64,000 nt of DNA from Candidatus Nomurabacteria bacterium (GTDB taxonomy: Bacteria > Patescibacteriota > Minisyncoccia > Phycocordibacterales > UBA918). The notes below the pieces were generated by a model, which was not told the origin of the DNA, did not search any database, and saw only the letters and a list, made by a program, of their open reading frames with translations. Below, in pieces: positions 2,109 to 43,753 of the stretch; position 1 is the first letter of the stretch; each line of letters starts with the position of its first letter. Location of the stretch: the NCBI GenBank assembly GCA_023898585.1, contig CP060229.1, forward strand, positions 594,149 through 658,148, in the 5' to 3' direction. Made by a program: the position numbers and the translations under genes.

Positions 2109-3005
2109 ATGCGGTATCTTACTTCTGAAGAAATAAAGGCGCTTGAGCAGAAAGCGAATACACTTCGACAGAGTGTGATCGAAATGTTAACCGAAGCTGG
2201 CAGTGGACACACCGCCGGTCCGCTTGGTATGGCTGATGTTTTCACCCTGCTTTATTTTGGGGTACTAAAACACGATCCGAAAAACCCGGATTGGGAAGAA
2301 AGGGACAGAGTAGTCTTGTCTAATGGTCATATCTGTCCGATTTTGTATGCCACTTTAGCTCATGCCGGCTACTTTCCGGTTGAAGAACTCATGACTTTGC
2401 GCAAGCTTGGTTCACGTCTCCAGGGTCATCCTCACAGGGGAACGTTACCCGGAGTAGAAACCAGCTCAGGACCGCTAGGGTCGGGTTTGTCGCAGGCGGT
2501 TGGCATGGCTCTGGCGGAGAGGATAGACAATCCCTATTCTTCCAAATTCATTTATTGTTTAACCGGCGATGGGGAATTGGATGAGGGTCAGATTTGGGAA
2601 GCTTTGATGTTAGCCGGAAAAGAAAAACTAAACAATCTGATCATGATTATTGACCGTAACGGTATTCAGATTGATGGTTACACCAAAGACATCATGCCAC
2701 TAGAGCCTTTGGCGGAAAAGCTTGAATCATTTAATTTTGATGTGCAAGAGGTTGATGGGCACAACATAAGAGCCTTGAATGACGCTATCGGTAAAGCACA
2801 GTCGGTATACAGTCAACCATCAGTCATTATTGCTCATACTGTCGCCTCGAAAGGAGTTGATGTGTTTGAGAGAGACTTCAGGTGGCATGGCAATCCTCCC
2901 GGGAAAGGACCGGAGGACAGGGTGAGTAAAGGCGAGCAAGAAGCAGTGGCACTGAGAAAACTCAGAACATTAGCCGGAACTATTGAACCTCAAGATATTT
3001 CATAA
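2109..3005 (+). CDS. tkt: Transketolase, N-terminal (TPP-binding) subunit of a split enzyme
   Basis: GSGHTAGPLGMADV...NGHICPILYATLAHAGYF...GDGELDEGQIWEA are typical of the transketolase N-terminal section. Confidence 0.9.
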   Translation: MRYLTSEEIKALEQKANTLRQSVIEMLTEAGSGHTAGPLGMADVFTLLYFGVLKHDPKNPDWEERDRVVLSNGHICPILYATLAHAGYFPVEELMTLRKLGSRLQGHPHRGTLPGVETSSGPLGSGLSQAVGMALAERIDNPYSSKFIYCLTGDGELDEGQIWEALMLAGKEKLNNLIMIIDRNGIQIDGYTKDIMPLEPLAEKLESFNFDVQEVDGHNIRALNDAIGKAQSVYSQPSVIIAHTVASKGVDVFERDFRWHGNPPGKGPEDRVSKGEQEAVALRKLRTLAGTIEPQDIS

Positions 3006-3008
3006 ATT

Positions 3009-3992
3009 ATGTTTGCTAACCATCTACAACAAAATCTATCAGAAGAAACGGTAGAAAAAATACCAAACAGAAACGGTTACGGAGACGGGCTGTTGGAAGC
3101 GGGGAAGCGCGACGAGAGGGTCGTTGCCTTATGTTGCGATCTGACAGAGTCCACTCGCACCAATTTGTTTGCGGAGGAGTTTCCGAACCGCTTTATCCAG
3201 GTAGGTATTGCTGAACAAAACATGGCTTCTGTCGGCTCGGGAATGGCCTCTATGGGCAAGATTCCTTTTATCGCTTCTTACGCTATGTTTTCACCGGGCA
3301 GAAATTGGGAACAAGTCCGCACCACCATTGCTTACAACAATAGTAATGTAAAAATAGTCGGGGCTCACGCCGGTATCTCAGTCGGACCCGACGGTGCTAC
3401 TCATCAAGCGATTGAGGACATTGCCATTATGAGAGTAATTCCTAACATGGTTGTGATTGCTCCTTCTGATATCCACGAAGCGCGCAAGGTTACTTTAGCG
3501 GCTTCCAAGTACGATGGCCCGGTATATTTTCGTGTGGGGCGAAGTGCGGTGCCGGTTGTTACTACTCCTGAATCACCGTTTGAAATCGGGAAAGCTTACC
3601 GGATGTACTCAAGAAACGAATCACACGAACGTAAAGTGGGTATAGTGGTGACCGGTTCATTGCTCTTTAACGCGCTGATGGTAGCTGATAAATTAAACAA
3701 GGAAAATGTAGGCGTTTCGGTTCTGCATATGCCGACTATTAAGCCGTTAGACACCGAAGCTCTGGAGTCTTTTGCGGTCGAACATGGAGTCTTGGTAACA
3801 ATGGAAGAGCATAGTATCATCGGTGGTCTTGGTGGTGCGGTCGCTGAACATCTGTCAGAAACAGTCCCAACAAAAATTGTCAGAATGGGAATAAAGGATG
3901 TGTTTGGTGAGTCCGGAGAACCGGACGAGTTGATTTCTCACTTTGGTCTTGATGTGAAAAGTCTTATAAGTGCGATAAAGATGTTGGTCTAA
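3009..3992 (+). CDS. tkt: Transketolase, C-terminal (pyrimidine-binding) subunit
   Basis: GIAEQNMASVGSGMA...FSPGRNWEQVR present. Starts 4 nt after the N-terminal subunit's stop. Confidence 0.9.
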   Translation: MFANHLQQNLSEETVEKIPNRNGYGDGLLEAGKRDERVVALCCDLTESTRTNLFAEEFPNRFIQVGIAEQNMASVGSGMASMGKIPFIASYAMFSPGRNWEQVRTTIAYNNSNVKIVGAHAGISVGPDGATHQAIEDIAIMRVIPNMVVIAPSDIHEARKVTLAASKYDGPVYFRVGRSAVPVVTTPESPFEIGKAYRMYSRNESHERKVGIVVTGSLLFNALMVADKLNKENVGVSVLHMPTIKPLDTEALESFAVEHGVLVTMEEHSIIGGLGGAVAEHLSETVPTKIVRMGIKDVFGESGEPDELISHFGLDVKSLISAIKMLV

Positions 3993-12084: not shown

Positions 12085-13671
12085 ATGGGTATATACTCGC
12101 CAAGTAAATCTATGTCCCAAAAAGACTTGTCGCATTTACTACCGTATGCCAGGAGGAGTGATTTCAAGGTAGCGAGAGCATCGGAGTTGGTTGGTAGAGA
12201 CCGATATTTTTTTCGCTTTCTGGAGGTTGTGCCCGGTGTGGCCTCCTGGGGGGCACTGATTGGGATCGTGTTGGCCTCGATGTACGCTCCTTTTTTCGCT
12301 GCCTATTTCATCATTGCTTTTTCAGTATATTGGGTTTTGAAAACAGTCTTTCTTTCTGTTCACGTGAGACATAATTGGAAGCGACTCAAGCACCATATGG
12401 AGCTTGATTGGCAACAAATGGTTGGCCGTTTTGAATATGATAAATTTTACCACTTAGTAATTTTCCCCTTCTACAAAGAACCCAGGGAGGTCCTGGAAGA
12501 AACATTACTTGGCCTCACCAAAGCCAAGTACGACGCTAAAAAGTTGATTGTGGTTCTGGCGTCGGAAGAGAGGGCAGGGAAGGACGCGACCGCACTAGCT
12601 TATGAAATGGAAAAAAAGTTTTCCTCGCAATTTGGTCACTTTCTCGTCACGGTTCACCCTGCTGACACCATGGGAGAGATTGCCGGCAAAGGTTCTAATA
12701 CTCACTTTGCCCTGCACGAAGTAAAAGAAAAAATCATTGATCAGAATCACATTCCCTATAAAAATATAATAACTTCGATTTTTGATGTTGATACGGTTAT
12801 CTACCCAGACTATTTCAACTGCCTGATTTGGCACTTCATGACGGTCGAAAATCCTTACAAAAGCGCTTTCCAGCCGGTACCTCTTTTCACAAATAATTTA
12901 TGGGAAGCAACGGCTCTCGCTAGAGTAATGGCCATGTCAAGCACTTTCTGGCAAATGATCATGCAAGAACGTCCAGAGAAAGCAGCAACATTTTCTTCCC
13001 ACTCCGTCAGTTTTCAGGCCCTTTACGAAATCGGTTATGGTCAGGCCAATGTGGTAAGTGAAGACTCCAGGATATTCTGGAATTTATTGATTGCGAATAA
13101 CGGTAATTTTGAAGTTGTTTCGCTGTCCTACCCGATTGCCATGGATGCTACGACTGCTCCGACTTTACGAGGTACGATTGCCAATATCTATCGCCAACAC
13201 CGACGTTGGACATATGGGGTGGAAAATTGGTGTTATATCATTTATCATTTTTCCAAGAACAAAGCCATTCCTTTTAAAAAACGACTGACGATAGCTGTTT
13301 TGCAGGGGGAGGGGTATTGGTCTTTGGTTACCAACCCAATAATGCTTTTTATTCTCGGTTGGGCACCGATCTTTTTGGGCACCAGAGAATTTCATGAAAC
13401 GGTACTTTCTTACGAATTGCCGATTATGGTCAGAAATCTACTCATCGTCGCCATGTTTGGCTTAGTTGTGTCGTCGGTTATTTCGTTATCGCTGACTCCG
13501 CCTCGCCCCGATGGACACAGCCGTTTTCGTTACATTGTCATGACCTTGCAGTGGATAATGGTGCCGATGACGATGATTGTGTTTAGCGCTATACCCGGCC
13601 TTGATGCGCAGACAAGGTTAATGTTGGGGCGATACATGGGATTTTGGGTGACACCCAAGAGAGAAAAATAA
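12085..13671 (+). CDS. Processive family-2 glycosyltransferase, integral membrane (cellulose/chitin/hyaluronan-synthase-like)
   Basis: Multiple TM helices. DVDTVIYPD (DxD) and YRQHRRW (QxxRW processivity motif). Confidence 0.7.
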   Translation: MGIYSPSKSMSQKDLSHLLPYARRSDFKVARASELVGRDRYFFRFLEVVPGVASWGALIGIVLASMYAPFFAAYFIIAFSVYWVLKTVFLSVHVRHNWKRLKHHMELDWQQMVGRFEYDKFYHLVIFPFYKEPREVLEETLLGLTKAKYDAKKLIVVLASEERAGKDATALAYEMEKKFSSQFGHFLVTVHPADTMGEIAGKGSNTHFALHEVKEKIIDQNHIPYKNIITSIFDVDTVIYPDYFNCLIWHFMTVENPYKSAFQPVPLFTNNLWEATALARVMAMSSTFWQMIMQERPEKAATFSSHSVSFQALYEIGYGQANVVSEDSRIFWNLLIANNGNFEVVSLSYPIAMDATTAPTLRGTIANIYRQHRRWTYGVENWCYIIYHFSKNKAIPFKKRLTIAVLQGEGYWSLVTNPIMLFILGWAPIFLGTREFHETVLSYELPIMVRNLLIVAMFGLVVSSVISLSLTPPRPDGHSRFRYIVMTLQWIMVPMTMIVFSAIPGLDAQTRLMLGRYMGFWVTPKREK

Positions 13672-22543: not shown

Positions 22544-23272
22544 ATGAACACCATTTTCGAAAAGATATGGGAGAAAAAGTTTGTGTTTTTGGGCACGTTT
22601 TTTCTGGTGTTCACTTTGTCATACATTGTCCTTCTGGCCGTTGATTTCTTACCCGAGCCGGTAACTAAAACAGAAGAATCAAAATCAGGGACCGACCAAG
22701 AGTCCTCCAAAGAATCTGCATCCGAATTGGATACTGAAGATGTTGAAGCGGTTGATGTATCGGGTGATGACATCTCCGCTCTTGAGATTGAATCAACGTC
22801 AACAGAGGATTTAGCAGTCAACGATAGTGAAGCGGTGAAACCAATCAGGATCGCGATCGCTAAAATTGACAAGGACATAGCTGTTCTTAATCCCACTTCT
22901 CGCACCATAGCCGACTTGGACGAGGCGCTACTTGGTGGTGTCGTAAGACATCCCGACTCAGCCACTTTGGCCCAAGAAGGTAACGTTTTTATTCTCGGCC
23001 ACTCCAGTTATCTGCCTAAAGTCTTCAATAAAAATTTTCAAGCATTTAATGGTATTCAAAATCTTGAATGGGGAGATGTGATTGAGGTTTATTCTGAGGA
23101 TTCTGTATACAAATACCAAGTGGTAAAAGTTTACCGAGCCAAGGCCAATGATGTGACAGTTCCTATCGCCGGGACAGGTAAAATGCTTACCTTGGCAACC
23201 TGCAACAGCTTTGGTAGTACCGACGATCGGTATATAGTGGAAGCAAAACAGATAGAGGTGGAAACCATCTAG
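22544..23272 (+). CDS. Sortase-family cysteine transpeptidase
   Basis: N-terminal TM anchor, acidic linker, His motif (FILGHSS) and catalytic TLATC (TLxTC) followed by Arg. Confidence 0.8.
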   Translation: MNTIFEKIWEKKFVFLGTFFLVFTLSYIVLLAVDFLPEPVTKTEESKSGTDQESSKESASELDTEDVEAVDVSGDDISALEIESTSTEDLAVNDSEAVKPIRIAIAKIDKDIAVLNPTSRTIADLDEALLGGVVRHPDSATLAQEGNVFILGHSSYLPKVFNKNFQAFNGIQNLEWGDVIEVYSEDSVYKYQVVKVYRAKANDVTVPIAGTGKMLTLATCNSFGSTDDRYIVEAKQIEVETI

Positions 23273-23435
23273 CAACTTGACAAAAGGTGAATTTACGGTA
23301 CATTATTAAATAATAGTGTTCTCCCGGTTGTACGGTTTATTTATTTAGTTCGTTTTCCTTGACGCATGTTTCTTTGTTGTTTCGTAAGCTTTGTTACTCT
23401 TGTGTATATATGGTGTAGGCAGGAGTATTAATTTT

Positions 23436-26400
23436 ATGAATAACCAAGATACTCGCATTATGAAAAAATATTCAAAGACCATTGCCAGTGTGATGGTGGT
23501 TTTTGCTATGACACTGTCAGCTGTGGCAAACCCATTTCTAACTGTGGCGGCATTCGATCAGTTTGATTCCCAATTTGGTTTTGACAATTCCTTTAATTTT
23601 GACAAGGACTTCGAATTTTCAAATTCTCAAGGATCGTCGAATGGAAACACTTTCGAATCCACCACTCCCGGTCAGGTGATAACCTCATCATCAGAGACAT
23701 TCACCGAATGTGTTCTCGAAGCTAGTCACGATGTTGTGACGGTGGGAGACAATATTACTCTCAACTGGCGAACCAGTGGTTTTGACAGTATCACTATCAA
23801 CGGCCAGTCTGTTTCTGGTAACAGTGGTTCTAAAGTCATTACCAATTTGCGTGAAAACTCCACTTTTACACTGCAGGCCTTGAGCAACAGTGGTTCAAGT
23901 TGTTTTCAGCAAGTACAAGTTACTTGTCTTCCTCCGGAAGAGCCGAAGGAATGTAAGCTTGAGATTGAGAAGACGGTAAACACGACTACCGCCGTACCGG
24001 GCGATAATCTTACCTATACAATCACGGTAAAAAATACCGGTGACGCCGACTGTACCGGAGGAGGGGTAAAGATCGAAGATGTAGTTGATAATAACCTGAG
24101 TTATTTGAGCCACCAATTAAGCGGTAATTTCAGTGCCGGTTACGGAGGTGATCCTGTCTACACCACCAACAATCGCACTCTGCATTTTAATGGCAATGTT
24201 CTAAATCCCGGTGAATCAGGAACTATTACTTGGATCGGTAAAGTAAACGCCCCCACTCAATGTGGAGACTTCCAGGTGAAGAATCAAGCCAAGGCTTCTG
24301 CCAAGGAACTAAATAATTTTCAGAGTTGGGTATACAGTCAAACTGTAAAAACTGACATTGATAATGATTGTCCGGAACCGGACGGGTGTGTGCTTGATGT
24401 CGATAAGACGGTAAACAAAACCACCGCTGTACCAGGTGATAACCTCACTTACACCATCACGGTAAAAAATACCGGTGACACCGATTGTACCGGGAGTGGT
24501 GTTTTGATTGAGGATGTGGTTGATCCGAACATCAGTTACCTGAGTCATAGTTTGAGCAATGATTTCCTCGCCGGATATCTTAATATTCCTGTCTACACCA
24601 CCAACAATCGCACTCTGCATTTTAATGGCAACATCTTGACTCCCGGTGAATCAGGAACCATTTCTTGGGTCGGTAAAGTCAGCGCTCCTAATCAGTGTGG
24701 TGATTTTGAAGTTACAAACCAAGCCAAAGCAACGGCTGTTGAGTTGGATAATTTTCAGACTTGGGCATATAGCCAGGTTGTAAAAACTGTTGTCGATAAT
24801 GACTGTGTGGTTGAGGATGAATTCGCCACAGTGGTTGCTCATAAAATTGTTTGTTCAAACGAGGCTGAATTGCCGAATTACGGTAACGATGGTCCGAACA
24901 TTACATCCAACACCGCTACCGATTGGGTTGCTACTCACAACAGTTGTTCACTGGTTTCCGGATGGGAATTCGAATGGACCGACAACCAAATCAACGACCC
25001 CGGCGACACACTGATCGGCCGGGCCGGTTCACCTTGGAACACTTTTGGTCCAACTGATGGAAACGGAAAAACTTCAACCGTGATCAATCTAACCAATTTG
25101 ACAAACGACCAAGTTTGGTTCAGGGAAGTGTTGCAAAATGGATATATTCCATTTACTCATGGAGCAAACGCCGGAACGAATATTGATAATGTTTCAGCTG
25201 AATTCTATTGTGGCAGTGACGTTATTAACTATGACAATCGAGATTATATACAAGGAATGCAAGATGATGGTGTCTATTATTGTGTAGCTTGGAATTCTCC
25301 GATACCAGAGGTACCCGCTCCAACCTGTGATTTGTTCACAGCCAATCCAACGGCCATAACCGCAGGCGACAGTTCGACTCTAACTTGGGAGACATCGCAT
25401 GCTAGTCAAGTCTTCTTGAATAATGGCATCGGAGAGGTGGCACACGACGGCTCTATAGCTGTTTCTCCTCTAGCCGATATTGTCTACAAACTTACTGTTA
25501 TTGGAGAGGAAGACAAGCGAGTTGAATGTGAAGTTCCTATTAATGTCTCTCTCGATTCGGTACCGGTTTGTGAATTGTTCACCGCGACTCCCAATTCACT
25601 TCCGTACGGAGGAGGAAGTGTGGCCTTGAATTGGAAAGTTTCTAATGCTTCCCAAGTGTCCATCTCTCCTTTGGTCGGTTCTGTTGAATTGATCGGCACA
25701 CGAAATGTAAATGTAGCGGAAGGTACCACTTTCATTTTAACTGCGACTGATGACAATGGAGACAAGGTGACTTGCCCGGCTCCGGTTGCTGTGGCTGATC
25801 CGGAACCAGATCCTATCACATGTCAAAACAACGTCTCTTTCTCTGCTTCTGACACGTCCATCAGACGAGGTGGTTCATCCACTCTTACTTGGAGCACGAC
25901 CGATATCGACTCAGTGTCTATAAGTGGTATAAACGAAACTTCGTTGTCAGGAAGTAAAAAAGTTTCACCCTCAAATGATATCACTTACACTTTAACCGCA
26001 ACAAAAGGGAATAATTCAATAAACTGTCCGGTTTCGATTGATGTTTCGAGTGGTGGTGGCGGTGGAGGAAGTGTGTCACCAAGTTGTGAGTTGGATATTT
26101 CTGATACCAAAATTAAAGCTGGTGAGAAAATCACTTTGGAGTGGGACACATCAAGAGCGACCGAAGTAACACTGACAGACGACAAAGGTAAGGTTCTGTT
26201 TACAACGGATGATTACCTAGCTAAGGATAAAGTTGATTATTACGATGGCTCGATCACCCTGAAGCCAACCCGAGACACCGAATATACACTGTTGGCGGAA
26301 CGAGGTTCAAGAGACGAAGAGTGTAAAGTAAAAGTTAAAGTCGAGGATGACGTGGTTGTTTTACAAACTAGAGACCAGCAACCATTGGTAGCCGGCATCT

Positions 26401-27341
26401 CTCTAAGTCAAGTGCCATACACCGGATTTGAAGCAGGTCCGATCATGACCGCTATGTTCTACATTCTTTTGATTGCTTGGGCAGTGTACGTCAGTTACCT
26501 GTTGGTGATACGAAGACAGGTGTCTTCAGTTGGTGGGGGAGGAGGTGAAGTGTTTTCCGTTAAAGAAGAAAAAAAAGCATCAATGCGACAGAAGGAGGAG
26601 TCAGTACGACCCGACGTATTTGTAGCTTCTGTTACGACAAGTCCCGCTCCGTCTGATGTCACCCCGGCTAATTTACCAACCGGTATGCCTGTTATCGGCT
26701 ATGAAAATCACATTGAAGATGAGGGTGATGGTGAGACTGACGAGACAAACCCGCATCAAGTTGATGACGCTTTTGTCACCGCTTTGGAGAATCGCGCTCA
26801 CAGTCAAAAAGCACTTTTGTCCAGCGATGCTGTACGGTACTTTATTGGAACAACTACAAATGAGGCGGAACGTAATGAAATACTTGATGTTGTTATCAAA
26901 GAAGCAAAAAACAATTATCCGCTTGAGGACGGTTGGATTGTGATAAATGAATCAAGAATGCGAAACCTTTGTGAAGTTTGTAAAAACAATAAGCAATCAT
27001 CGGAATTCTCATCGTTTATCCCTGCTGTTGTGCCGGAAGGCACTGGCTCTCTTGCGGAAGCAATTGTAACCGGTAACGTGGTCGCCGCTTACCAAATGAT
27101 CGGCAATCGACCAATGTTTGCTTTGGCTGATGCTTCGGCCGATCTTGACGCTCTGTATCGACAGAGGAAAGGAGGCAAAGAGCAAGTCTCAAATCTCTTG
27201 AAAAAGGAGTCAGAGAAATTGTCTGATGAAAAAATAAAAAATATGATTTCAGCTTTGACCGGGGCGTTAGATGGTGTATATACCGATGAAGCGTCTGCGG
27301 TAAAGATGGCGATCATGAAAGCAGTTAAGGAAGTATCGTAA
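23436..27341 (+). CDS. Giant (about 1300 aa) secreted surface protein with two DUF11-type repeat domains, Ig-like repeats, a VPYTG sorting-like signal, TM helix and an unusually long (about 280 aa) C-terminal domain
   Basis: ATG 13 nt after AGGAG. Signal peptide KKYSKTIASVMVVFAMTLSAVA. Two copies of KTVNxTTAVPGDNLTYTITVKNTGD[AT]DCTG..EDVVD..SYLSH (DUF11-like). QVPYTG followed by the hydrophobic segment IMTAMFYILLIAWAVYVSYLLV and RRQ. The ORF then continues to 27341. Confidence 0.7.
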   Translation: MNNQDTRIMKKYSKTIASVMVVFAMTLSAVANPFLTVAAFDQFDSQFGFDNSFNFDKDFEFSNSQGSSNGNTFESTTPGQVITSSSETFTECVLEASHDVVTVGDNITLNWRTSGFDSITINGQSVSGNSGSKVITNLRENSTFTLQALSNSGSSCFQQVQVTCLPPEEPKECKLEIEKTVNTTTAVPGDNLTYTITVKNTGDADCTGGGVKIEDVVDNNLSYLSHQLSGNFSAGYGGDPVYTTNNRTLHFNGNVLNPGESGTITWIGKVNAPTQCGDFQVKNQAKASAKELNNFQSWVYSQTVKTDIDNDCPEPDGCVLDVDKTVNKTTAVPGDNLTYTITVKNTGDTDCTGSGVLIEDVVDPNISYLSHSLSNDFLAGYLNIPVYTTNNRTLHFNGNILTPGESGTISWVGKVSAPNQCGDFEVTNQAKATAVELDNFQTWAYSQVVKTVVDNDCVVEDEFATVVAHKIVCSNEAELPNYGNDGPNITSNTATDWVATHNSCSLVSGWEFEWTDNQINDPGDTLIGRAGSPWNTFGPTDGNGKTSTVINLTNLTNDQVWFREVLQNGYIPFTHGANAGTNIDNVSAEFYCGSDVINYDNRDYIQGMQDDGVYYCVAWNSPIPEVPAPTCDLFTANPTAITAGDSSTLTWETSHASQVFLNNGIGEVAHDGSIAVSPLADIVYKLTVIGEEDKRVECEVPINVSLDSVPVCELFTATPNSLPYGGGSVALNWKVSNASQVSISPLVGSVELIGTRNVNVAEGTTFILTATDDNGDKVTCPAPVAVADPEPDPITCQNNVSFSASDTSIRRGGSSTLTWSTTDIDSVSISGINETSLSGSKKVSPSNDITYTLTATKGNNSINCPVSIDVSSGGGGGGSVSPSCELDISDTKIKAGEKITLEWDTSRATEVTLTDDKGKVLFTTDDYLAKDKVDYYDGSITLKPTRDTEYTLLAERGSRDEECKVKVKVEDDVVVLQTRDQQPLVAGISLSQVPYTGFEAGPIMTAMFYILLIAWAVYVSYLLVIRRQVSSVGGGGGEVFSVKEEKKASMRQKEESVRPDVFVASVTTSPAPSDVTPANLPTGMPVIGYENHIEDEGDGETDETNPHQVDDAFVTALENRAHSQKALLSSDAVRYFIGTTTNEAERNEILDVVIKEAKNNYPLEDGWIVINESRMRNLCEVCKNNKQSSEFSSFIPAVVPEGTGSLAEAIVTGNVVAAYQMIGNRPMFALADASADLDALYRQRKGGKEQVSNLLKKESEKLSDEKIKNMISALTGALDGVYTDEASAVKMAIMKAVKEVS

Positions 27342-37380: not shown

Positions 37381-38073
37381 ATGAGAAAAATGTCTGTCGG
37401 AATGAGTCTGGTTGAGTTGTTGGTGGTCATGACCATAATCGCCATTTTGACCGCCGCCTTTGCCACCAGCTTTACCAAGGAATCTCAACAAAAGAGGGAT
37501 ATTCAAAGACAGTCTGATCTGCGGAATCTTCAAGTGGCGATTGAGCTTTATAAAAATAAGAATGGTCGGTATCCGGAGGGGTGTAACACGCCTGGTAATT
37601 GGTCTGGAGAGTTAGGGTCGAGTTATAAATGTGGTAATAATACCTCACAATACATAAAAAATTTAGCTCCTGAGTTTATTCCGGTTCTACCCACTGATCC
37701 TAAGCTAAACTGCCCATCGAGCGGATCTTGTAACAAGGGGTATGTTTATACGGTAAACGCCGACGGCAGTGTGTATAAATTAATGGCCAAGAATACAGTT
37801 GAGGCTGAGCCTGACAGTGATAATTTGAACGGCAAAGGTGTCGACTGGGACCATCCTTTCAAAAGTTGTGAAATTAGTGATGATAGCCAGTCATATTGTA
37901 CAGGCTCTCTGTCTGGAAACACGCCTCCTCATTGTCAAGAGAGTAACGATCAATTTAAAACCAGTTACGGTGTATGGGGAGGTTACGCTATACCAGATGT
38001 AGTTCCTGGTCATCCTCAATATGAAAACAAAATTAAAACAGGAACCAGGGCTATTATTTGCAACATCCCATAA
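37381..38073 (+). CDS. Type IV pilin / pseudopilin-like protein (class A of this array)
   Basis: Prepilin signal VGMSLVELLVVMTIIAIL (G at -1, E at +5), then LRNLQVAIELYKNKNGRYPEG. Confidence 0.75.
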   Translation: MRKMSVGMSLVELLVVMTIIAILTAAFATSFTKESQQKRDIQRQSDLRNLQVAIELYKNKNGRYPEGCNTPGNWSGELGSSYKCGNNTSQYIKNLAPEFIPVLPTDPKLNCPSSGSCNKGYVYTVNADGSVYKLMAKNTVEAEPDSDNLNGKGVDWDHPFKSCEISDDSQSYCTGSLSGNTPPHCQESNDQFKTSYGVWGGYAIPDVVPGHPQYENKIKTGTRAIICNIP

Positions 38074-38119
38074 ATATAACCCCTCAATCAAACCTTACAA
38101 CCACTGCATTTACCACAAC

Positions 38120-38704
38120 ATGAATTTTTACAAAAACAAAACAAACACCACCGGCTTCTCACTGATTGAAGTTATGATCGTGACCTCGATCATCGGTATT
38201 TTGGCGACATACGGGACATTCTCCTATAACGAAACCAAGAAGCAGGCACGCGATGTTAGGCGTATGGAAGACCTGACCACCATCGCCAAGGCATTTGTGT
38301 TGGCAGAAGAGGACAGGGGTCGGGCGTTTGATTGTGATTCGGGGGTGAGGATTGAGCCGGGTTTTATGTCTGCGGACAACAACACCGTAGTTGATTGTAG
38401 TGATAAAGACGAGATACAATCCGCTTTGGCAAAGTATTTGGGCAAAATACCGAGTGACCCTAAAGGCCCGGGCGATGCGAGGTATTTTTATTACTACAGC
38501 AATCATGATTGTCTCGCTCCGCAAAGCAAAGGATATCTAGTCCATGGCGCTATGGAAAATGACAGCAATTCCAACCGCGACCAGGTGTGTGGCAAAAAAG
38601 TCAATGGAACTGATGCGGGGTTGAATAATGAAGGTTACTACAATTACAACACTGGTCTAGGAGTCGCTAACCATCCCTTCGTCGTTCGGGTCGGAGATCT
38701 GTAG
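38120..38704 (+). CDS. Type IV pilin-like protein (class B)
   Basis: TGFSLIEVMIV prepilin motif. KQARDVRRMEDL...NHPFVVRVGDL. In-frame ATG chosen at the signal peptide. Confidence 0.75.
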   Translation: MNFYKNKTNTTGFSLIEVMIVTSIIGILATYGTFSYNETKKQARDVRRMEDLTTIAKAFVLAEEDRGRAFDCDSGVRIEPGFMSADNNTVVDCSDKDEIQSALAKYLGKIPSDPKGPGDARYFYYYSNHDCLAPQSKGYLVHGAMENDSNSNRDQVCGKKVNGTDAGLNNEGYYNYNTGLGVANHPFVVRVGDL

Positions 38705-38729
38705 TATTCCTCTTTAAATAAAAGTCAGT

Positions 38730-39365
38730 ATGTTCAAAGATATTTTACAAACAAAAAAATCCGGCTTCACCTTGGTGGAGCTCTTGGTGGTGATTGGGAT
38801 TATCGGGGTTTTGGTCGGAGCGGTTTCTTTGAATTTCAACGCTTCCAAAGTAAAGGCCAGAAACGAAGCTTTTCAAAATTCTCTGGAAGAATTACGTCTG
38901 GCCATGAATCTCTACAAGGCTAAGTACGGGAGATATCCGGAGGCTAATAGCAATTGTTCCACTTATTCTTATTCTGGTAATATTACAAAAATACACAAAA
39001 CAGACGCTAGTGGATGCGCCGGTTTCGAAATAATTTCCGGAATGGTACCGGATTTTGTTGATGGCTTACCTTCGGCCAAGAGTTCGGCCAATGAGAATTG
39101 TGTAATTACCTATCAAGTTCATGGTGATAACATTGGTACCTGGGGTGATAATATCATTGATGGTGATTGGTATAAACTGACGGCCGAAAATTGTCACGGC
39201 GGAGCTTCTTCACCGGCCGAAGGTATTCAGCCGGGAGACAGATTTGCTCGCTGTCCGGATAGTTGTTCTGACTGTAATGGTGTCACCTACGCGACGATCA
39301 AAGTAGACAAGTCTTTTTATGAGTCTTACAGTATCTACAGTAGCAGTACAGGCATGTGTCGCTAG
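38730..39365 (+). CDS. Type IV pilin-like protein (class A paralog)
   Basis: SGFTLVELLVVIGIIG, and LRLAMNLYKAKYGRYPE shared with the first pilin. Confidence 0.75.
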   Translation: MFKDILQTKKSGFTLVELLVVIGIIGVLVGAVSLNFNASKVKARNEAFQNSLEELRLAMNLYKAKYGRYPEANSNCSTYSYSGNITKIHKTDASGCAGFEIISGMVPDFVDGLPSAKSSANENCVITYQVHGDNIGTWGDNIIDGDWYKLTAENCHGGASSPAEGIQPGDRFARCPDSCSDCNGVTYATIKVDKSFYESYSIYSSSTGMCR

Positions 39366-39448
39366 ATTTCAAATAAAATATTTAAACTATAAGAAACCCC
39401 TGTGCACACGTAAAACAATCCATCTCCCCTCGGTGGTACAATATCACC

Positions 39449-40030
39449 ATGATTAAACTTAATTCGCGGGCTGGCTATTCTTTGCTTGAGATTATGGTGG
39501 TGGTGTCTATTATCACTATACTGGCTTCCATCGGCGCCTATTCTTTAAACGAAAGTTCAAAACAAGCTCGTGATGTTAAGCGAATTGAAGAATTAAAGCA
39601 AATAGCAAAAGTGTTAAGTTTGGCTGAATTTGAGTTGGGGAGGGAGATAAAGTGTGGTGGCGGAACACGTATAGAATCCGGTTTTAAGGAAGAGGATGGT
39701 GTAACACCGCTTACAGAAACTAGCTGTGCAGACATAGAAATAATAAAGAGATACATAACCGAGTATTTTCCTGAAGTGCCACACGATCCCAAAGGCCCAG
39801 ATGATAAAAGATACTTTTATTATTATGATCGACATGATTGTCCACTTCCACAAAAAAATGGCTTCTTGGTTTATGCCGCCATGGAAAATGAAAGCAATTC
39901 CAACCGTGATGAAGTGTGTGGGAAAAAGGATAATTCAAACGAGGGAGGTAATAATCATGGCTACTACAATTACCATCCAGTTTTAAAAGTTCACAATCAT
40001 CCCTACGTTGTACGGGTCGGAGATCTATAG
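39449..40030 (+). CDS. Type IV pilin-like protein (class B paralog)
   Basis: AGYSLLEIMVV. KQARDVKRIEEL...NHPYVVRVGDL is nearly identical in its blocks to the second pilin. Confidence 0.75.
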   Translation: MIKLNSRAGYSLLEIMVVVSIITILASIGAYSLNESSKQARDVKRIEELKQIAKVLSLAEFELGREIKCGGGTRIESGFKEEDGVTPLTETSCADIEIIKRYITEYFPEVPHDPKGPDDKRYFYYYDRHDCPLPQKNGFLVYAAMENESNSNRDEVCGKKDNSNEGGNNHGYYNYHPVLKVHNHPYVVRVGDL

Positions 40031-40043
40031 TTATTATAAAAAT

Positions 40044-40607
40044 ATGTTTAAAAAAAATTCCCAACCCAACCAACTCGGCTTCACTCTCATTGAGGTTTTG
40101 GTGGTGATTGCTATTATCAGTGTGTTGATTTCAATTGTCAGTATCAGCTTTACTGAAGCCAGAAAGGGGACTAGAGACGGCGTTAGAATGACCGCGCTCT
40201 CCGAGCTTCAGTTGGCGATAGAAAAGTATAAAGCGCAAAAAGGGCAGTACCCGGATCAAGGTTGCGGGGTGGCGGGAACTAATTGGGCCGGGCCGGGTAG
40301 CCATTCGTCAGATGGTGGGGTGACTTGCAATGAATACATAACAGGTTTAGCCCCTGAATATATCGCCAAATTACCAACTGATCCGAATAGCGAAGCGGTT
40401 GCCGATATGGGCTTTCTTTATCAAGTATCGACGAACAGAGACGCCTACAAAATAATGGTTTACGGCAGTGTGGAGAAAAAGACCATCACTTCCTACGGTG
40501 ATAAATTTGCTCGGTGCCCAGCGAAAGATACTAGCGGTGAGTGTGGCGGAGATTTACCTCCGGAAAAAGTATACGCTGTCTATTCACCGGGGGCGGAAAA
40601 TTGGTAA
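40044..40607 (+). CDS. Type IV pilin-like protein (class A paralog)
   Basis: LGFTLIEVLVVIAIIS. LQLAIEKYKAQKGQYPD. Confidence 0.75.
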   Translation: MFKKNSQPNQLGFTLIEVLVVIAIISVLISIVSISFTEARKGTRDGVRMTALSELQLAIEKYKAQKGQYPDQGCGVAGTNWAGPGSHSSDGGVTCNEYITGLAPEYIAKLPTDPNSEAVADMGFLYQVSTNRDAYKIMVYGSVEKKTITSYGDKFARCPAKDTSGECGGDLPPEKVYAVYSPGAENW

Positions 40608-42869: not shown

Positions 42870-42994
42870 GGGTTGTGGATAACCAAGGCCGGCGAGATTG
42901 CTTTTCTTGGTAAATGTGGTATTATCCTGGTAGCGCTCCGGTCCTTTTCGGAGTTTCTTTTTTGCTCCGCACGGGGCTTTTGGAGGATAGTACG

Positions 42995-43543
42995 TTGAAA
43001 TATAAAATCATTCTTCTGGTTTTGGGTCTTTTTGTCTCCGGAATAAACTTTGCCTATTCGGCCACATATGTGGCACACAACGAGTTTTACAAGATTCACG
43101 TTCCTGGGGATGCTTATATCCCTTCGGGAACGATAAGCGAATCTCAATATTACACCTTCGGGCTAGGTATGACTCAGTCTTGGTATGTGCTCGAAGTTAC
43201 AATTACCGCGCCGGATAGTCTCGAGGGCGGATTGGAGTTCGTTACCAGTAGTAAACCCTACGGATCCGGATGGTTATTTTATGATGGCACCTTATTTGGT
43301 GGAGAATCGTCAAGTTTTACTATGTCTGGTTCCTTACTCTCGACGCCCGAGGTGCCAACTAACGTGTACTTGTCTATGGCACTATACGGAACCGATCAGG
43401 TGATCACCTTCGGTGAAGGTGGAAGCTTTATCACTGCGGGTGTAGACACCTCGGTGATACCGATCCCGGCCGCGTTTTGGCTCTTCGGCTCAGCCCTACT
43501 CAGCTTTGTCGGATTCTCAAGAAGGAGAACTGTCTTTGTATGA
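42995..43543 (+). CDS. Secreted protein with PEP-CTERM-like C-terminal sorting signal (TTG start proposed)
   Basis: GGAGG 9 nt upstream of TTG. Signal peptide KYKIILLVLGLFVSGINFAYSA. C-terminus VIPIPAAFWLFGSALLSFVGFSRRRTVFV (P-x-P motif, TM helix, RRR). Confidence 0.55.
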   Translation: MKYKIILLVLGLFVSGINFAYSATYVAHNEFYKIHVPGDAYIPSGTISESQYYTFGLGMTQSWYVLEVTITAPDSLEGGLEFVTSSKPYGSGWLFYDGTLFGGESSSFTMSGSLLSTPEVPTNVYLSMALYGTDQVITFGEGGSFITAGVDTSVIPIPAAFWLFGSALLSFVGFSRRRTVFV

Positions 43544-43549
43544 CAATGG

Positions 43550-43613
43550 CCCTAGGTCTTGCCTAGGGAAAAAGACGAAAATAAACCCAGGTAACCCTAG
43601 GTCTTGCCTAGGG
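43550..43613. repeat. Two tandem copies of the 19-bp palindromic hairpin CCCTAGGTCTTGCCTAGGG (43550-43568, 43595-43613)
   Basis: Exact duplicate read directly. Each is followed by an A-run on the plus strand. Confidence 0.7.
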
Positions 43614-43627
43614 AGAAAAAATGGAAC

Positions 43628-43666
43628 GAGCGTGTCGGAAATCACTTTTCCGACACGCTCTTTTTT
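43628..43666. terminator. Bidirectional intrinsic terminator (GAGCGTGTCGGAAA...TTTCCGACACGCTC plus TTTTTT)
   Basis: 14-bp stem with T-runs on both strands. Sits between the PEP-CTERM-like gene and rnr. Confidence 0.75.
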
Positions 43667-43676
43667 ATTCCTTTTT

Positions 43677-43711
43677 CCGAAGGGTTACCCTTCGCGAAGG
43701 GTAACCCTTCG
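43677..43711. repeat. Two adjacent copies of the dispersed palindrome CGAAGGGTWACCCTTCG (also at 27350-27364 and 63266-63284)
   Basis: Four intergenic occurrences in 64 kb, read directly. Core GGTWACC flanked by CGAAG/CTTCG. Confidence 0.7.
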
Positions 43712-43753
43712 TTTGGTTCCCTCGGTATGCGGTATGTTTTTGTTCGTTATTTT

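What the first reader, a model, noticed from the sequence alone, without database searches (positions are those of the whole stretch)
42995..43543. PEP-CTERM-like sorting signal in a genome that also encodes an LPXTG-type sortase system
The small secreted protein ends in VIPIPAAFWLFGSALLSFVGFSRRRTVFV, a proline-containing motif, TM helix and Arg cluster at the extreme C-terminus. This is the hallmark of exosortase/archaeosortase cargo (PEP-CTERM and its variants). It appears about 16 kb from a classical sortase with its substrate. If an exosortase/archaeosortase-family protease exists elsewhere, two independent C-terminal sorting systems would coexist. Otherwise the motif defines an orphan sorting signal.
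Basis: partly seen in the sequence, partly recalled or inferred. Interest (0 to 1): 0.5.

Follow-up and report, generated by a model that had tools for sequence, protein, structure and literature searches.

The report
Proteobacterial-type sorting tail in CPR bacterium
A tiny symbiont-type (CPR/Patescibacteria) bacterium that uses a Gram-positive-style sortase also carries a small surface protein whose C-terminal tag is the PEP-CTERM/VPLPA-CTERM type otherwise seen in outer-membrane bacteria; the whole gene belongs to a rare family shared between CPR and non-CPR genomes, and no matching processing enzyme was visible in the ~8% of the genome that could be read.

Summary
The gene at 42995-43543 (+) has a Shine-Dalgarno site, a TTG start and 182 codons. 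It encodes a signal peptide, a confidently modelled beta-sandwich domain (pLDDT 94.9) and the tail VIPIPAAFWLFGSALLSFVGFSRRRTVFV.

The tail is of the PEP-CTERM class, closest to VPLPA-CTERM, the cargo tag of exosortase XrtD. It scores below the curated cut-offs (14-19 bits against 25.35).

The window comes from a ~995-kb Parcubacteria-group genome that encodes a sortase next to a VPYTG protein.

The whole protein belongs to a very small family of about 15 clusters. All members have a signal peptide, the same domain and a PEP-CTERM-type tail. Four related CPR genomes carry a member at the same place, between smc and the RNase R gene, behind a conserved leader. These alleles are only 25-76% identical, while flanking genes are 76-91% identical. 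They interleave in the tree with copies from non-CPR genomes, so genes have been exchanged between phyla.

No exosortase and no second such tail were found in the window, its ~14 kb of flanks or ~345 kb from relatives. Over 90% of the genome could not be searched.

The tag is most likely an orphan that acts as a membrane anchor. A hidden exosortase is not excluded.

The parts
42893..42994 (+). Conserved leader upstream of the gene. It includes a hairpin followed by a T-run (42935-42954) and the Shine-Dalgarno site GGAGGA (42982-42987).
   Evidence: It can be aligned with the regions upstream of the CPR homologues P0142 (L085), P0139 (L088) and P0138 (L143). In L088 the upstream gene is not smc but an SLT-like gene, yet the leader is still there. 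The hairpin was found.
42995..43543 (+). Gene for a 182-aa secreted protein with a PEP-CTERM-class tail (TTG start; stop codon at 43541-43543).
   Evidence: ORF and sequence. Called as 182 aa in independent assemblies. Identical copies in 8 assemblies. Family homologues.
42995..43060 (+). Signal peptide, residues 1-22 (MKYKIILLVLGLFVSGINFAYS); predicted cleavage after AYS.
   Evidence: Assigned by inspection of the sequence. The cleavage site falls in the same alignment column as AQA|A and ANA|A in the homologues. No signal-peptide predictor was available.
43061..43417 (+). Beta-sandwich domain, residues 23-141, with the family motifs P37, Y41, APD(S/D)L, G78, G92, G103 and M110.
43454..43540 (+). 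C-terminal sorting-signal-like tail, residues 154-182: VIPIPA motif, hydrophobic helix AAFWLFGSALLSFVGF, RRR, then TVFV.
   Evidence: NCBIfam VPLPA-CTERM scored 14.4-18.9 bits (cut-off 25.35), floc_PepA tail 24-25 bits, and Pfam PEP-CTERM 14.2 bits (cut-off 20.7). The tail is 79% identical to that of P0002. The same core lies at the extreme C-terminus in 71 ORFs, nearly all from Gammaproteobacteria.
43551..43612 (+). Two exact copies of the palindromic 17-mer CCTAGGTCTTGCCTAGG (43551-43567 and 43596-43612), just downstream of the stop codon.
   Evidence: 2 matches against 0.01 expected by chance, and none elsewhere in the window. Several short-read contigs end about here.
43628..43660 (+). Intrinsic-terminator-like hairpin (14 pairs) followed by TTTTTT.
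22544..23272 (+). Context: sortase, the genome's other C-terminal sorting system (active-site motif TLATC).
   Evidence: Pfam Sortase scored 70.8 bits. NCBIfam sortase classes D and E matched below their cut-offs. NCBI names the protein 'sortase [Candidatus Kaiserbacteria bacterium]'.
23391..27341 (+). Context: 1316-aa surface protein with DUF11 repeats. It carries VPYTG, a membrane helix and RRQ about 1000-1040 residues into the ORF. This is the likely sortase substrate.
   Evidence: Pfam DUF11 scored 77.5 bits. The translation was read.

Best explanation
The gene encodes a small cell-surface protein of a rare family of PEP-CTERM-class proteins.

**Shown**
- The protein has a Sec-type signal peptide, a single roughly 120-residue beta-sandwich domain, a short linker, and a PEP-CTERM/VPLPA-CTERM-type tail.
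- The genome is a ~1-Mb Parcubacteria-group (CPR/Patescibacteria) genome.
- Family members sit in one fixed place, between smc and the RNase R gene, in four related CPR genomes.
- Those alleles interleave phylogenetically with copies from non-CPR genomes, at least one of them a bacterium with two membranes. The gene, tail included, has therefore moved between CPR and non-CPR bacteria more than once.

**Inferred**
- In the CPR cell the protein is exported by Sec and its signal peptide is removed.
- The beta-sandwich is displayed outside the cytoplasmic membrane. It is held by the C-terminal helix, with RRR on the cytoplasmic side.
- The P-x-P signature is an orphan here. It is inherited from genomes that have exosortase and is not processed, so the tail serves simply as a membrane anchor.
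- The domain most likely binds something, acting as an adhesin or matrix-binding module, possibly towards the envelope or exopolymer of partner bacteria.
For: **Gene and tail.**

**Organism.** Exact-sequence look-ups name the window's proteins Candidatus Nomurabacteria or Kaiserbacteria, on a 994,774-bp contig. The lineage is the Patescibacteria/Parcubacteria group.

**Tail class.**
- 71 ORFs with the same core, nearly all from Gammaproteobacteria, carry it at the extreme C-terminus.
- Of the nine related tails scored, five reach VPLPA-CTERM scores of 25.2-33.3 bits against a cut-off of 25.35 (four of them above it), and one sits next to XrtD at 573 bits.
- XrtD homologues carry names from the same taxa.

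**Family.**
- Exhaustive HMMER found homologues of the N-terminal domain at 27-35% identity. All have a signal peptide and a PEP-CTERM-type tail.
- A profile search found only 11 clusters among 5.8 billion proteins.
- Every NCBIfam hit to a family member is a PEP-CTERM family, apart from three weak single-member matches. P0141 passes TIGR02595.

**Same place in CPR genomes.**
- L085, L088 and L143 carry a member after smc, behind a shared leader.
- Flanking proteins are 76-91% identical, while the alleles are 25-76% identical.
- Only these genomes, out of about 20 relatives in which this region is covered, carry the gene.

**Non-CPR contexts.** These include NirB-like and pirin-like genes (my reading of the translations) with toxin-antitoxin genes; PurE/PurK; and an integrase with TPS/ShlB and GGDEF genes.

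**Tree.** P0141 (non-CPR) groups with P0142 (CPR) at 98% bootstrap, and that pair groups with P0138 (CPR) at 100%. P0139 (CPR) groups with P0144 at 100%. The target sits on a separate deep branch.

**Fold.**

**No exosortase and no second tail in the DNA examined.**

**Published distribution.** PEP-CTERM systems are described as confined to lineages with a periplasm and outer membrane, and sortases as generally absent from such species (Haft, bioRxiv 10.1101/2023.06.07.544157, read).
Against: - Only about 8% of the genome was visible, so an exosortase or archaeosortase homologue elsewhere cannot be excluded.
- All four CPR alleles keep an intact P-x-P motif, helix and basic cluster (IPIPA, VPEPP twice, IPNPS) even though their domains have diverged greatly. 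That could reflect selection by a processing enzyme rather than recent acquisition.
- The gene's base composition is not foreign to the genome: GC z = 1.2, GC3 z = 1.5, codon-adaptation z = -0.8. The target allele is therefore not a very recent arrival.
- The contexts of six family members (P0131-P0135, P0146) are unknown.
- The non-CPR carriers were not identified taxonomically.
Confidence: 0.55

Rival explanations
1. There is a true second sorting system. The genome encodes, outside the window, an exosortase/archaeosortase-family enzyme or an analogous intramembrane protease. It cleaves at the IPIPA motif and re-anchors the protein, as ArtA does for PGF-CTERM proteins in single-membrane archaea. 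Sortase and an exosortase-like pathway would then coexist.
For: - The three-part signal is intact in all four CPR alleles even though the domains are only 25-76% identical.
- The gene has its own conserved leader and a fixed location, which suggests long residence in the lineage.
- Its base composition resembles that of the host genome.
- More than 90% of the genome was not examined.
- A membrane-embedded family-2 glycosyltransferase, a possible exopolymer synthase, lies in the window at 12085-13671.
Against: - No exosortase signature was found in the window, in 14 kb of flanks, or in about 345 kb of related CPR loci searched with an XrtD-derived HMM.
- Only one such tail was found in about 80 kb, whereas PEP-CTERM genomes often carry 20 or more (for the published pattern; here).
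- All CPR tails score below the curated cut-offs, while some non-CPR relatives pass.
- The gene is absent from most related CPR genomes.
- No paper in the library links exosortase or PEP-CTERM cargo to CPR genomes.
Confidence: 0.2
2. The resident sortase processes the tail, treating it as a non-canonical sortase signal.
For: The overall architecture matches that of LPXTG signals: a motif, a helix and basic residues. A sortase is encoded 19.7 kb away.
Against: - The motif IPIPA lacks the Thr and Gly of every known sortase motif. The genome's own presumptive substrate uses VPYTG.
- The homologous tails belong to proteins from bacteria that use exosortases.
- The LPXTG anchor model did not match the target tail.
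Confidence: 0.03
3. The gene is an artefact of assembly or binning and really belongs to a gammaproteobacterium.
For: The tail is typical of Gammaproteobacteria. In L085 the gene lies at the end of a contig.
Against: - The same smc-to-gene junction occurs in 8 independent assemblies.
- In the window, L082 and L088 the gene is flanked on both sides by CPR genes.
- The leader and TTG start are shared among the CPR loci but not with the non-CPR copy.
- The gene's GC content lies within the range of the window.
Confidence: 0.02
4. The gene is a decaying relic of a transfer and has no function in the CPR cell.
For: - The gene is sporadic among relatives.
- The tails score below curated cut-offs.
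- The alleles diverge extremely fast.
Against: - The reading frame is intact and identical in 8 assemblies.
- It has a good Shine-Dalgarno site, a terminator and a conserved leader.
- The family's invariant residues are retained and the fold is predicted with very high confidence.
- Four CPR genomes keep intact alleles.
Confidence: 0.1

Closest known systems
VPLPA-CTERM sorting domain with exosortase XrtD (NCBIfam TIGR03370 and TIGR04152)
   Same: - The target has a tail of motif [VI]P[LVI]PAA-(F/V)WLFGS-, a hydrophobic helix and an Arg cluster at the extreme C-terminus of a small protein that carries a signal peptide.
- Its tail is 79% identical to a tail that passes TIGR03370 (P0002).
- The same core occurs in 71 ORFs, nearly all gammaproteobacterial, and one lies beside XrtD.
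   Different: - The target scores 14.4-18.9 bits against a cut-off of 25.35.
- Its motif is IPIPA, not VPLPA.
- The organism is a CPR bacterium, not a proteobacterium.
- No XrtD was seen in the DNA that could be read.
Classical PEP-CTERM proteins with exosortase XrtA/XrtB (TIGR02595, Pfam PF07589), including the floc-formation protein PepA of Zoogloea (NF033554)
   Same: - The three-part signal is the same.
- The best NCBIfam hit of the target is the PepA tail region (24.3 bits, residues 99-179).
- Family members P0141, P0142 and P0138 carry VPEP motifs, and P0141 passes TIGR02595.
   Different: - The target is below the cut-offs (PF07589 14.2 against 20.7; PepA 24 against 80).
- PEP-CTERM systems are described only from lineages with an outer membrane, and usually with many substrates per genome.
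FxDxF family PEP-CTERM protein (NCBIfam NF038126)
   Same: This is the only curated family that aligns over nearly the whole length of family members. P0141 residues 47-186 align to model positions 40-165 (30.9 bits), and P0142 residues 26-195 align at 21.8 bits. Size and architecture are similar.
   Different: All scores are below the cut-off of 50, and the target itself gives no hit. This is at best a distant sister family.
PGF-CTERM with archaeosortase A in Haloferax
   Same: This is the only exosortase-family system described in cells without an outer membrane. The tail is removed and replaced by a lipid anchor (as summarised in the paper read). It is the mechanistic model for the rival explanation.
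   Different: The signature motif is different (PGF) and the organisms are archaea. No archaeosortase model matched anything in the window.
LPXTG with sortase
   Same: The three-part architecture is the same, and this system is present in the same genome.
   Different: The enzyme fold is unrelated and the motif differs. The target has no [LV]PxTG.

Membership tests
PEP-CTERM / VPLPA-CTERM sorting-signal proteins | Three-part signal at the extreme C-terminus: a short Pro-containing signature, a hydrophobic membrane-spanning segment, and an Arg-rich cluster. | tested here: met
   IPIPA at residues 155-159, the hydrophobic stretch AAFWLFGSALLSFVGF at 159-174, and RRR at 176-178, four residues before the stop. 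The definition is from Haft's 2023 preprint.
PEP-CTERM / VPLPA-CTERM sorting-signal proteins | A score at or above the curated cut-off of TIGR03370 (25.35), TIGR02595 (16) or PF07589 (20.7). | tested here: not met
   TIGR03370 scored 14.4 bits on the whole protein and 18.9 bits on the tail alone. PF07589 scored 14.2 bits. TIGR02595 was not listed.
PEP-CTERM / VPLPA-CTERM sorting-signal proteins | An N-terminal signal peptide, so that the protein is exported before the tail is processed. | tested here: met
   The N-terminus MKYKIILLVLGLFVSGINFAYS|A has a basic region, a hydrophobic region and an A-x-S cleavage site by inspection, and it aligns with the homologues' signal peptides. No dedicated predictor was available.
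PEP-CTERM / VPLPA-CTERM sorting-signal proteins | Homology, or a near-identical tail, shared with proteins that pass the curated models. | tested here: met
   The family member P0141 passes TIGR02595 (20.9 against 16). P0002, a tail-only match, passes TIGR03370 (25.5). The N-terminal domain homology has E-values of 4e-9 to 1e-4 across 1.84 billion proteins.
PEP-CTERM / VPLPA-CTERM sorting-signal proteins | A cognate exosortase (XrtA or XrtD family; TIGR04178 or PF09721) in the same genome. | not testable with these tools
   None was found in the 64-kb window, in 14 kb of flanks, or in related CPR loci. The other roughly 915 kb of the genome could not be fetched. A database search with XrtD returned only its 120 best hits, none labelled as CPR.
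PEP-CTERM / VPLPA-CTERM sorting-signal proteins | Many substrates per sorting enzyme: several proteins with the tail in one genome. | tested here: inconclusive
   Only one such tail was found among all ORFs of the window and its flanks, which is about 8% of the genome.
PEP-CTERM / VPLPA-CTERM sorting-signal proteins | [quoted passage not shown] | tested here: not met
   The window's proteins are named Candidatus Nomurabacteria or Kaiserbacteria, in the Parcubacteria group. The genome encodes a sortase and its substrate. That CPR bacteria lack an outer membrane is established knowledge and was not tested here.
FxDxF family PEP-CTERM protein (NF038126) | A score of at least 50 bits against NF038126. 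| tested here: not met
   The target gave no hit. The relatives scored 30.9 bits (P0141), 21.8 bits (P0142) and 20.8 bits (P0139).
Sortase substrates (LPXTG anchor, TIGR01167) | An [LVN]PxT[GAN] motif just before the C-terminal helix. | tested here: not met
   The tail has IPIPA and no Thr-Gly. TIGR01167 was not among the target's hits even at E <= 10. The genome's own substrate uses VPYTG.
Other archaeosortase or exosortase tags considered from memory (PIP-CTERM, IPTL-CTERM, PGF-CTERM) | A match to the corresponding NCBIfam sorting-domain model. | tested here: not met
   None was listed for the target at E <= 10. HMMER's filters drop most very weak matches, so this is a soft negative.

The most novel reading that the evidence does not exclude
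A clade of Parcubacteria-group CPR bacteria keeps a fast-changing cassette behind smc. The cassette encodes a surface-displayed beta-sandwich protein that carries the sorting tag of its partner bacteria. It is repeatedly exchanged with those bacteria, which have two membranes and use exosortases (Gammaproteobacteria, to judge from this allele's tail). Either the protein is processed by a so far unrecognised exosortase-like enzyme in a cell without an outer membrane, or it mediates attachment of the symbiont to the host's PEP-CTERM and exopolymer matrix. In either case the allele and tail type would be a genomic marker of which host a given CPR strain lives on.
Probability: 0.15. Interest if true: 0.75.

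Novelty: new member of a known kind. Interest (0 to 1): 0.45.

Why it matters
PEP-CTERM-class signals are described as a feature of bacteria with outer membranes, and sortases as a feature of bacteria without them. I found no paper that links PEP-CTERM cargo or exosortases to CPR genomes.

Here a bona fide member of a PEP-CTERM protein family sits in a conserved place in ~1-Mb CPR genomes that use sortase. Its alleles interleave with copies from non-CPR genomes.

If the tag is an orphan, this is a clean natural example of a sorting signal that has been separated from its enzyme and reused as a plain membrane anchor. It would also warn against inferring a sorting pathway from a tail alone.

If the tag is processed, the exosortase family would extend to CPR bacteria.

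In either case, gene flow of a surface protein between CPR and non-CPR bacteria gives a testable handle on an open problem: which hosts uncultured CPR lineages live on. CPR bacteria in activated sludge have been seen attached to floc-forming Zoogloea, whose flocs are reported to depend on PEP-CTERM proteins (PMC11393006).

Tried and rejected
1. **Homologues by the word-indexed search.** The full protein found only itself and two tail-only matches. BLAST and phmmer of the N-terminal domain against 71 gammaproteobacterial tail-bearing ORFs found nothing. The family appeared only with exhaustive HMMER.
2. **Looking for a CPR exosortase through the protein database.** A profile of two XrtD sequences returned 2,888 hits, of which only the best 120 are listed. 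All were XrtD-type, from Gammaproteobacteria wherever an organism was named except for single Deltaproteobacteria and 'Pacearchaeota' labels, so the search says nothing about CPR. I had planned to recognise CPR proteins by the column 'longest_contig = 994774'. That turned out to be unreliable, because the look-up index did not return the NCBI contig.
3. **The genome-contig scan.** The window's own genome was not among the matches, so the organism had to be identified through exact-protein look-ups instead.
4. **Family searches in other collections.** The family profile found nothing in JGI metagenome contigs, in IMG/VR viral contigs or in plasmids. No phage or plasmid vector for the exchange was found.
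5. **A recent-transfer signal in base composition.** The result was unremarkable, with z-scores of 1.2-1.5.
6. **Candidate processing enzymes in the window.** The multi-pass membrane proteins are a family-2 glycosyltransferase, MgtC and a DedA/VTT-domain protein. None is an exosortase.
7. **Rfam on the window.** Only one tRNA was found. The conserved leader matches no known RNA family, and with three sequences its covariation is too thin to call a structure.
8. **Unavailable resources.** The AlphaFold-database fold library was not available. Haft's 2012 archaeosortase paper is not held in the library.
9. **Rejected ideas.** Processing by sortase, because the motif lacks Thr-Gly. Misassembly, because 8 assemblies agree and the gene has CPR flanks on both sides.
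Full report
**1. The observation**

- An ORF on the + strand ends at 43543. Its longest form starts at ATG 42914.
- Independent gene callers used that start in two other assemblies and gave 182 aa. It also corresponds to the TTG start of the CPR homologues in an alignable leader.
- The product begins MKYKIILLVLGLFVSGINFAYS|ATYV. By inspection this is a typical Sec signal peptide, and its cleavage site aligns with that of the homologues.
- The product ends VIPIPAAFWLFGSALLSFVGFSRRRTVFV, as reported.
- A terminator-like hairpin with a T-run follows at 43628-43660.
- The same gene follows the same smc gene in eight independent assemblies from SRA and ENA. The locus is therefore not a chimera.
- The sortase at 22544-23272 is confirmed (Pfam Sortase, 70.8 bits). 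Its 1316-aa neighbour with DUF11 repeats carries VPYTG, a helix and RRQ.

**2. The class of the tail**

- At permissive E-values, every NCBIfam and Pfam match to the target is to the tail of a PEP-CTERM-class model. The matches are floc_PepA, EppA, EDSAP-1, VPLPA-CTERM and Pfam PEP-CTERM. All are below their curated cut-offs: VPLPA-CTERM 14.4-18.9 against 25.35, and PF07589 14.2 against 20.7.
- I scanned one genome from each of 185,579 species for the core PAAFWLFG.AL. It gave 76 loci. In 71 of them the motif lies 6-19 residues before a stop codon, preceded by [VI]P[VLI].
- Nearly all of these are Gammaproteobacteria (Methylococcales, Sedimenticolaceae, Chromatiales and others). None is from the Patescibacteria.
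- Nine related tails were scored: seven from these loci and the two tail-only database matches. They give 15.7-33.3 bits on VPLPA-CTERM. One of the loci (Amphritea) lies next to an exosortase that scores 573 bits on the XrtD model, the VPLPA-CTERM-specific exosortase, whose cut-off is 400.
- XrtD homologues in the protein database carry names from the same taxa.
- The tail is therefore a slightly off-consensus VPLPA-CTERM/PEP-CTERM signal.

**3. The organism**

- Exact-sequence look-ups show that the window's SMC, sortase, GyrB and EF-Ts are NCBI proteins. They are named Candidatus Nomurabacteria or Candidatus Kaiserbacteria bacterium and lie on a 994,774-bp contig. The lineage is the Patescibacteria/Parcubacteria group.
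- The gene content fits this assignment. There is a run of five type IV pilin-like genes, a short SMC and a sortase.
- PEP-CTERM systems are described as confined to lineages with a periplasm and outer membrane. Sortases are described as generally absent from such species (Haft, bioRxiv 10.1101/2023.06.07.544157).
- I found no paper that links exosortases or PEP-CTERM cargo to CPR genomes.

**4. The protein is a member of a family, not a lone tail**

- The word-indexed search found only the identical protein and two tail-only matches.
- An exhaustive HMMER search with the mature domain alone, against 1.84 billion cluster representatives, found eight small proteins of 170-210 aa at 27-35% identity.
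- Each of them has a signal peptide, the same domain, a Gly/Asn-rich linker and a PEP-CTERM-type tail. The tails include VPEA, VPEPP, VPIPPALWLFG, VPVPAAVWLFG, VPLPGAVWLFG and IPNPS.
- A profile search of 5.8 billion proteins found only 11 clusters. With those, about 15 are known.
- Scanned one by one, the family members hit PEP-CTERM families almost exclusively. P0141 passes TIGR02595 (20.9 against 16). The FxDxF family (NF038126) aligns over nearly the whole length, below its cut-off.
- AlphaFold2 on the nine-sequence domain alignment gives an 11-strand beta sandwich with pLDDT 94.9 and pTM 0.86.

**5. Where family members are encoded**

*In CPR genomes*
- P0142 (NCBI MAG GCA_964521645.1), P0139 (a 13.7-kb Logan contig) and P0138 lie at the same place as the window gene. 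They are downstream of smc, and where the contig continues the RNase R gene converges on them.
- The same pilin, RNase III and NusB-NUDIX genes lie upstream.
- All four share an alignable leader of about 100 nt, a Shine-Dalgarno site and a TTG start. In L088 an SLT-like gene separates smc from the leader, and the leader is still present.
- Flanking proteins are 76-91% identical among these genomes.
- The alleles are far more divergent. The target is 25-28% identical to the others. P0142 and P0139 are 53% identical, and P0142 and P0138 are 76% identical.

*Among other CPR relatives*
- An smc-anchored scan of metagenome contigs recovered 44 related CPR loci. The smc-RNase R arrangement is conserved in them.
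- The space between the two genes usually holds an SLT-like gene, or nothing. It holds the family gene in none of the 44.

*In non-CPR genomes*
- P0141 lies between genes whose translations I read as NirB-like and pirin-like, with toxin-antitoxin genes nearby, on two independent contigs.
- P0136 lies next to PurE, PurK and HicB genes.
- P0143 and P0145 lie next to a phage-type integrase. The P0145 contig also carries two-partner secretion genes (TPS/ShlB), and the P0143 contig a GGDEF gene.
- P0144 has a PDZ-like gene (my reading of its translation) downstream, like those island contexts.

*The tree*
- In a neighbour-joining tree, P0141 (non-CPR) pairs with P0142 (CPR) at 98% bootstrap, inside a 100% clade with P0138 (CPR).
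- P0139 (CPR) pairs with P0144 at 100%.
- The target sits on a separate deep branch.
- P0141 and P0142 are 75% identical in DNA, and the similarity starts exactly at the start codon.
- The CPR alleles are thus polyphyletic. The gene, with its tail, has moved between CPR and non-CPR genomes more than once. The directions of transfer are not resolved.

**6. Search for a processing enzyme and for other cargo**

- No window ORF has the exosortase Cys motif together with many membrane helices.
- The multi-pass membrane proteins are a family-2 glycosyltransferase, MgtC and a DedA/VTT-domain protein.
- Extending the window by about 9 kb to the right and about 5 kb to the left showed no PF09721.
- An HMM built from the XrtD hits found nothing among 2,939 ORFs from the window and 46 related CPR loci.
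- A general search for a C-terminal helix followed by basic residues found only the family members.
- All of this covers about 8% of this genome, plus one redundant region of its relatives.

**7. Interpretation**

- Shown: this is a PEP-CTERM-class surface protein family with members in sortase-using CPR genomes, where it occupies a fixed but sporadically filled place, and it has been exchanged with non-CPR bacteria.
- Most likely (about 0.55): in the CPR cell the tag is an orphan. The protein is exported by Sec, and the helix with RRR simply anchors the beta sandwich on the outer face of the membrane. There it may bind partner-cell or matrix components.
- Three observations are consistent with this. 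The CPR tails score below the curated cut-offs while some non-CPR relatives pass. Only one such tail is seen. Most relatives lack the gene.
- The main rival (about 0.2) is an unrecognised exosortase- or archaeosortase-like enzyme elsewhere in the genome. Two observations keep it alive. The P-x-P motif, helix and basic cluster are intact in all four divergent CPR alleles. The target's composition also resembles that of its genome.
- Processing by sortase, misassembly and a dead relic are each unlikely, for the reasons given under the rival explanations.

**8. Verdict**

The class of signal is right. The coexistence of two systems is not shown, and an orphan signal is more likely.
- Novelty: this is a new, uncurated member of the PEP-CTERM protein kind in an unexpected lineage, with an unusual pattern of exchange.
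- Interest is moderate at 0.45. It would be high if a CPR exosortase were found or if the gene proved to mark the host.

Noticed in passing
window 23391-27341 (+): The sortase-adjacent 1316-aa DUF11 protein has its sortase-type signal (VPYTG, a membrane helix, RRQ) about 1000-1040 residues into the ORF. About 270 further residues follow it, and these would stay on the cytoplasmic side after cleavage. That is unusual for a sortase substrate. It could also be a fusion or a frameshift.
   Followed up: partly
window 42870-43753; L094-L128: The space between smc and the convergent RNase R gene varies among related CPR genomes. It is empty in some (7-469 bp). In most it holds an SLT-like gene of 360-540 aa. 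In others it holds two small secreted proteins or a 630-aa membrane protein. In four genomes it holds the PEP-CTERM family gene.
   Followed up: yes
window 42893-42994; L085 9893-10000; L088 7290-7393; L143 45-147: A leader of about 100 nt travels with the family gene in CPR genomes. It contains a hairpin and U-run whose position is conserved but whose sequence differs. It may be the terminator of the upstream gene or an attenuator. It has no Rfam match, and three sequences give too little covariation to judge.
   Followed up: partly
window 43551-43567 and 43596-43612: Two exact copies of the palindromic 17-mer CCTAGGTCTTGCCTAGG lie 45 bp apart, right after the stop codon, and occur nowhere else in the window. 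A further 15-pair palindrome lies at 43678-43711. Several short-read contigs end about here.
   Followed up: partly
window 37381-40607 (+): Five consecutive genes encode proteins with prepilin-type N-terminal methylation motifs, directly upstream of smc. The number of pilin genes differs between related genomes (two in L085 and L088).
   Followed up: partly
window 12085-13671 (+): A 528-aa multi-pass membrane protein carries a family-2 glycosyltransferase domain (Glyco_trans_2_3, 32 bits) and has no NCBIfam match. It may be a synthase-type exopolysaccharide enzyme in a genome of only ~1 Mb.
   Followed up: partly
L086 9209-13101; L087 9257-13022; L142: In the non-CPR contigs the family gene follows a short phage-integrase-like gene. 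After it come several small unannotated ORFs and a PDZ-domain protein. This looks like a small conserved island or cassette.
   Followed up: no
window 2109-3992 (+): Transketolase is encoded as two adjacent genes, an N-terminal half of 298 aa and a C-terminal half of 327 aa. They lie next to RpiB and ribulose-phosphate 3-epimerase genes (Pfam labels seen in L140).
   Followed up: no
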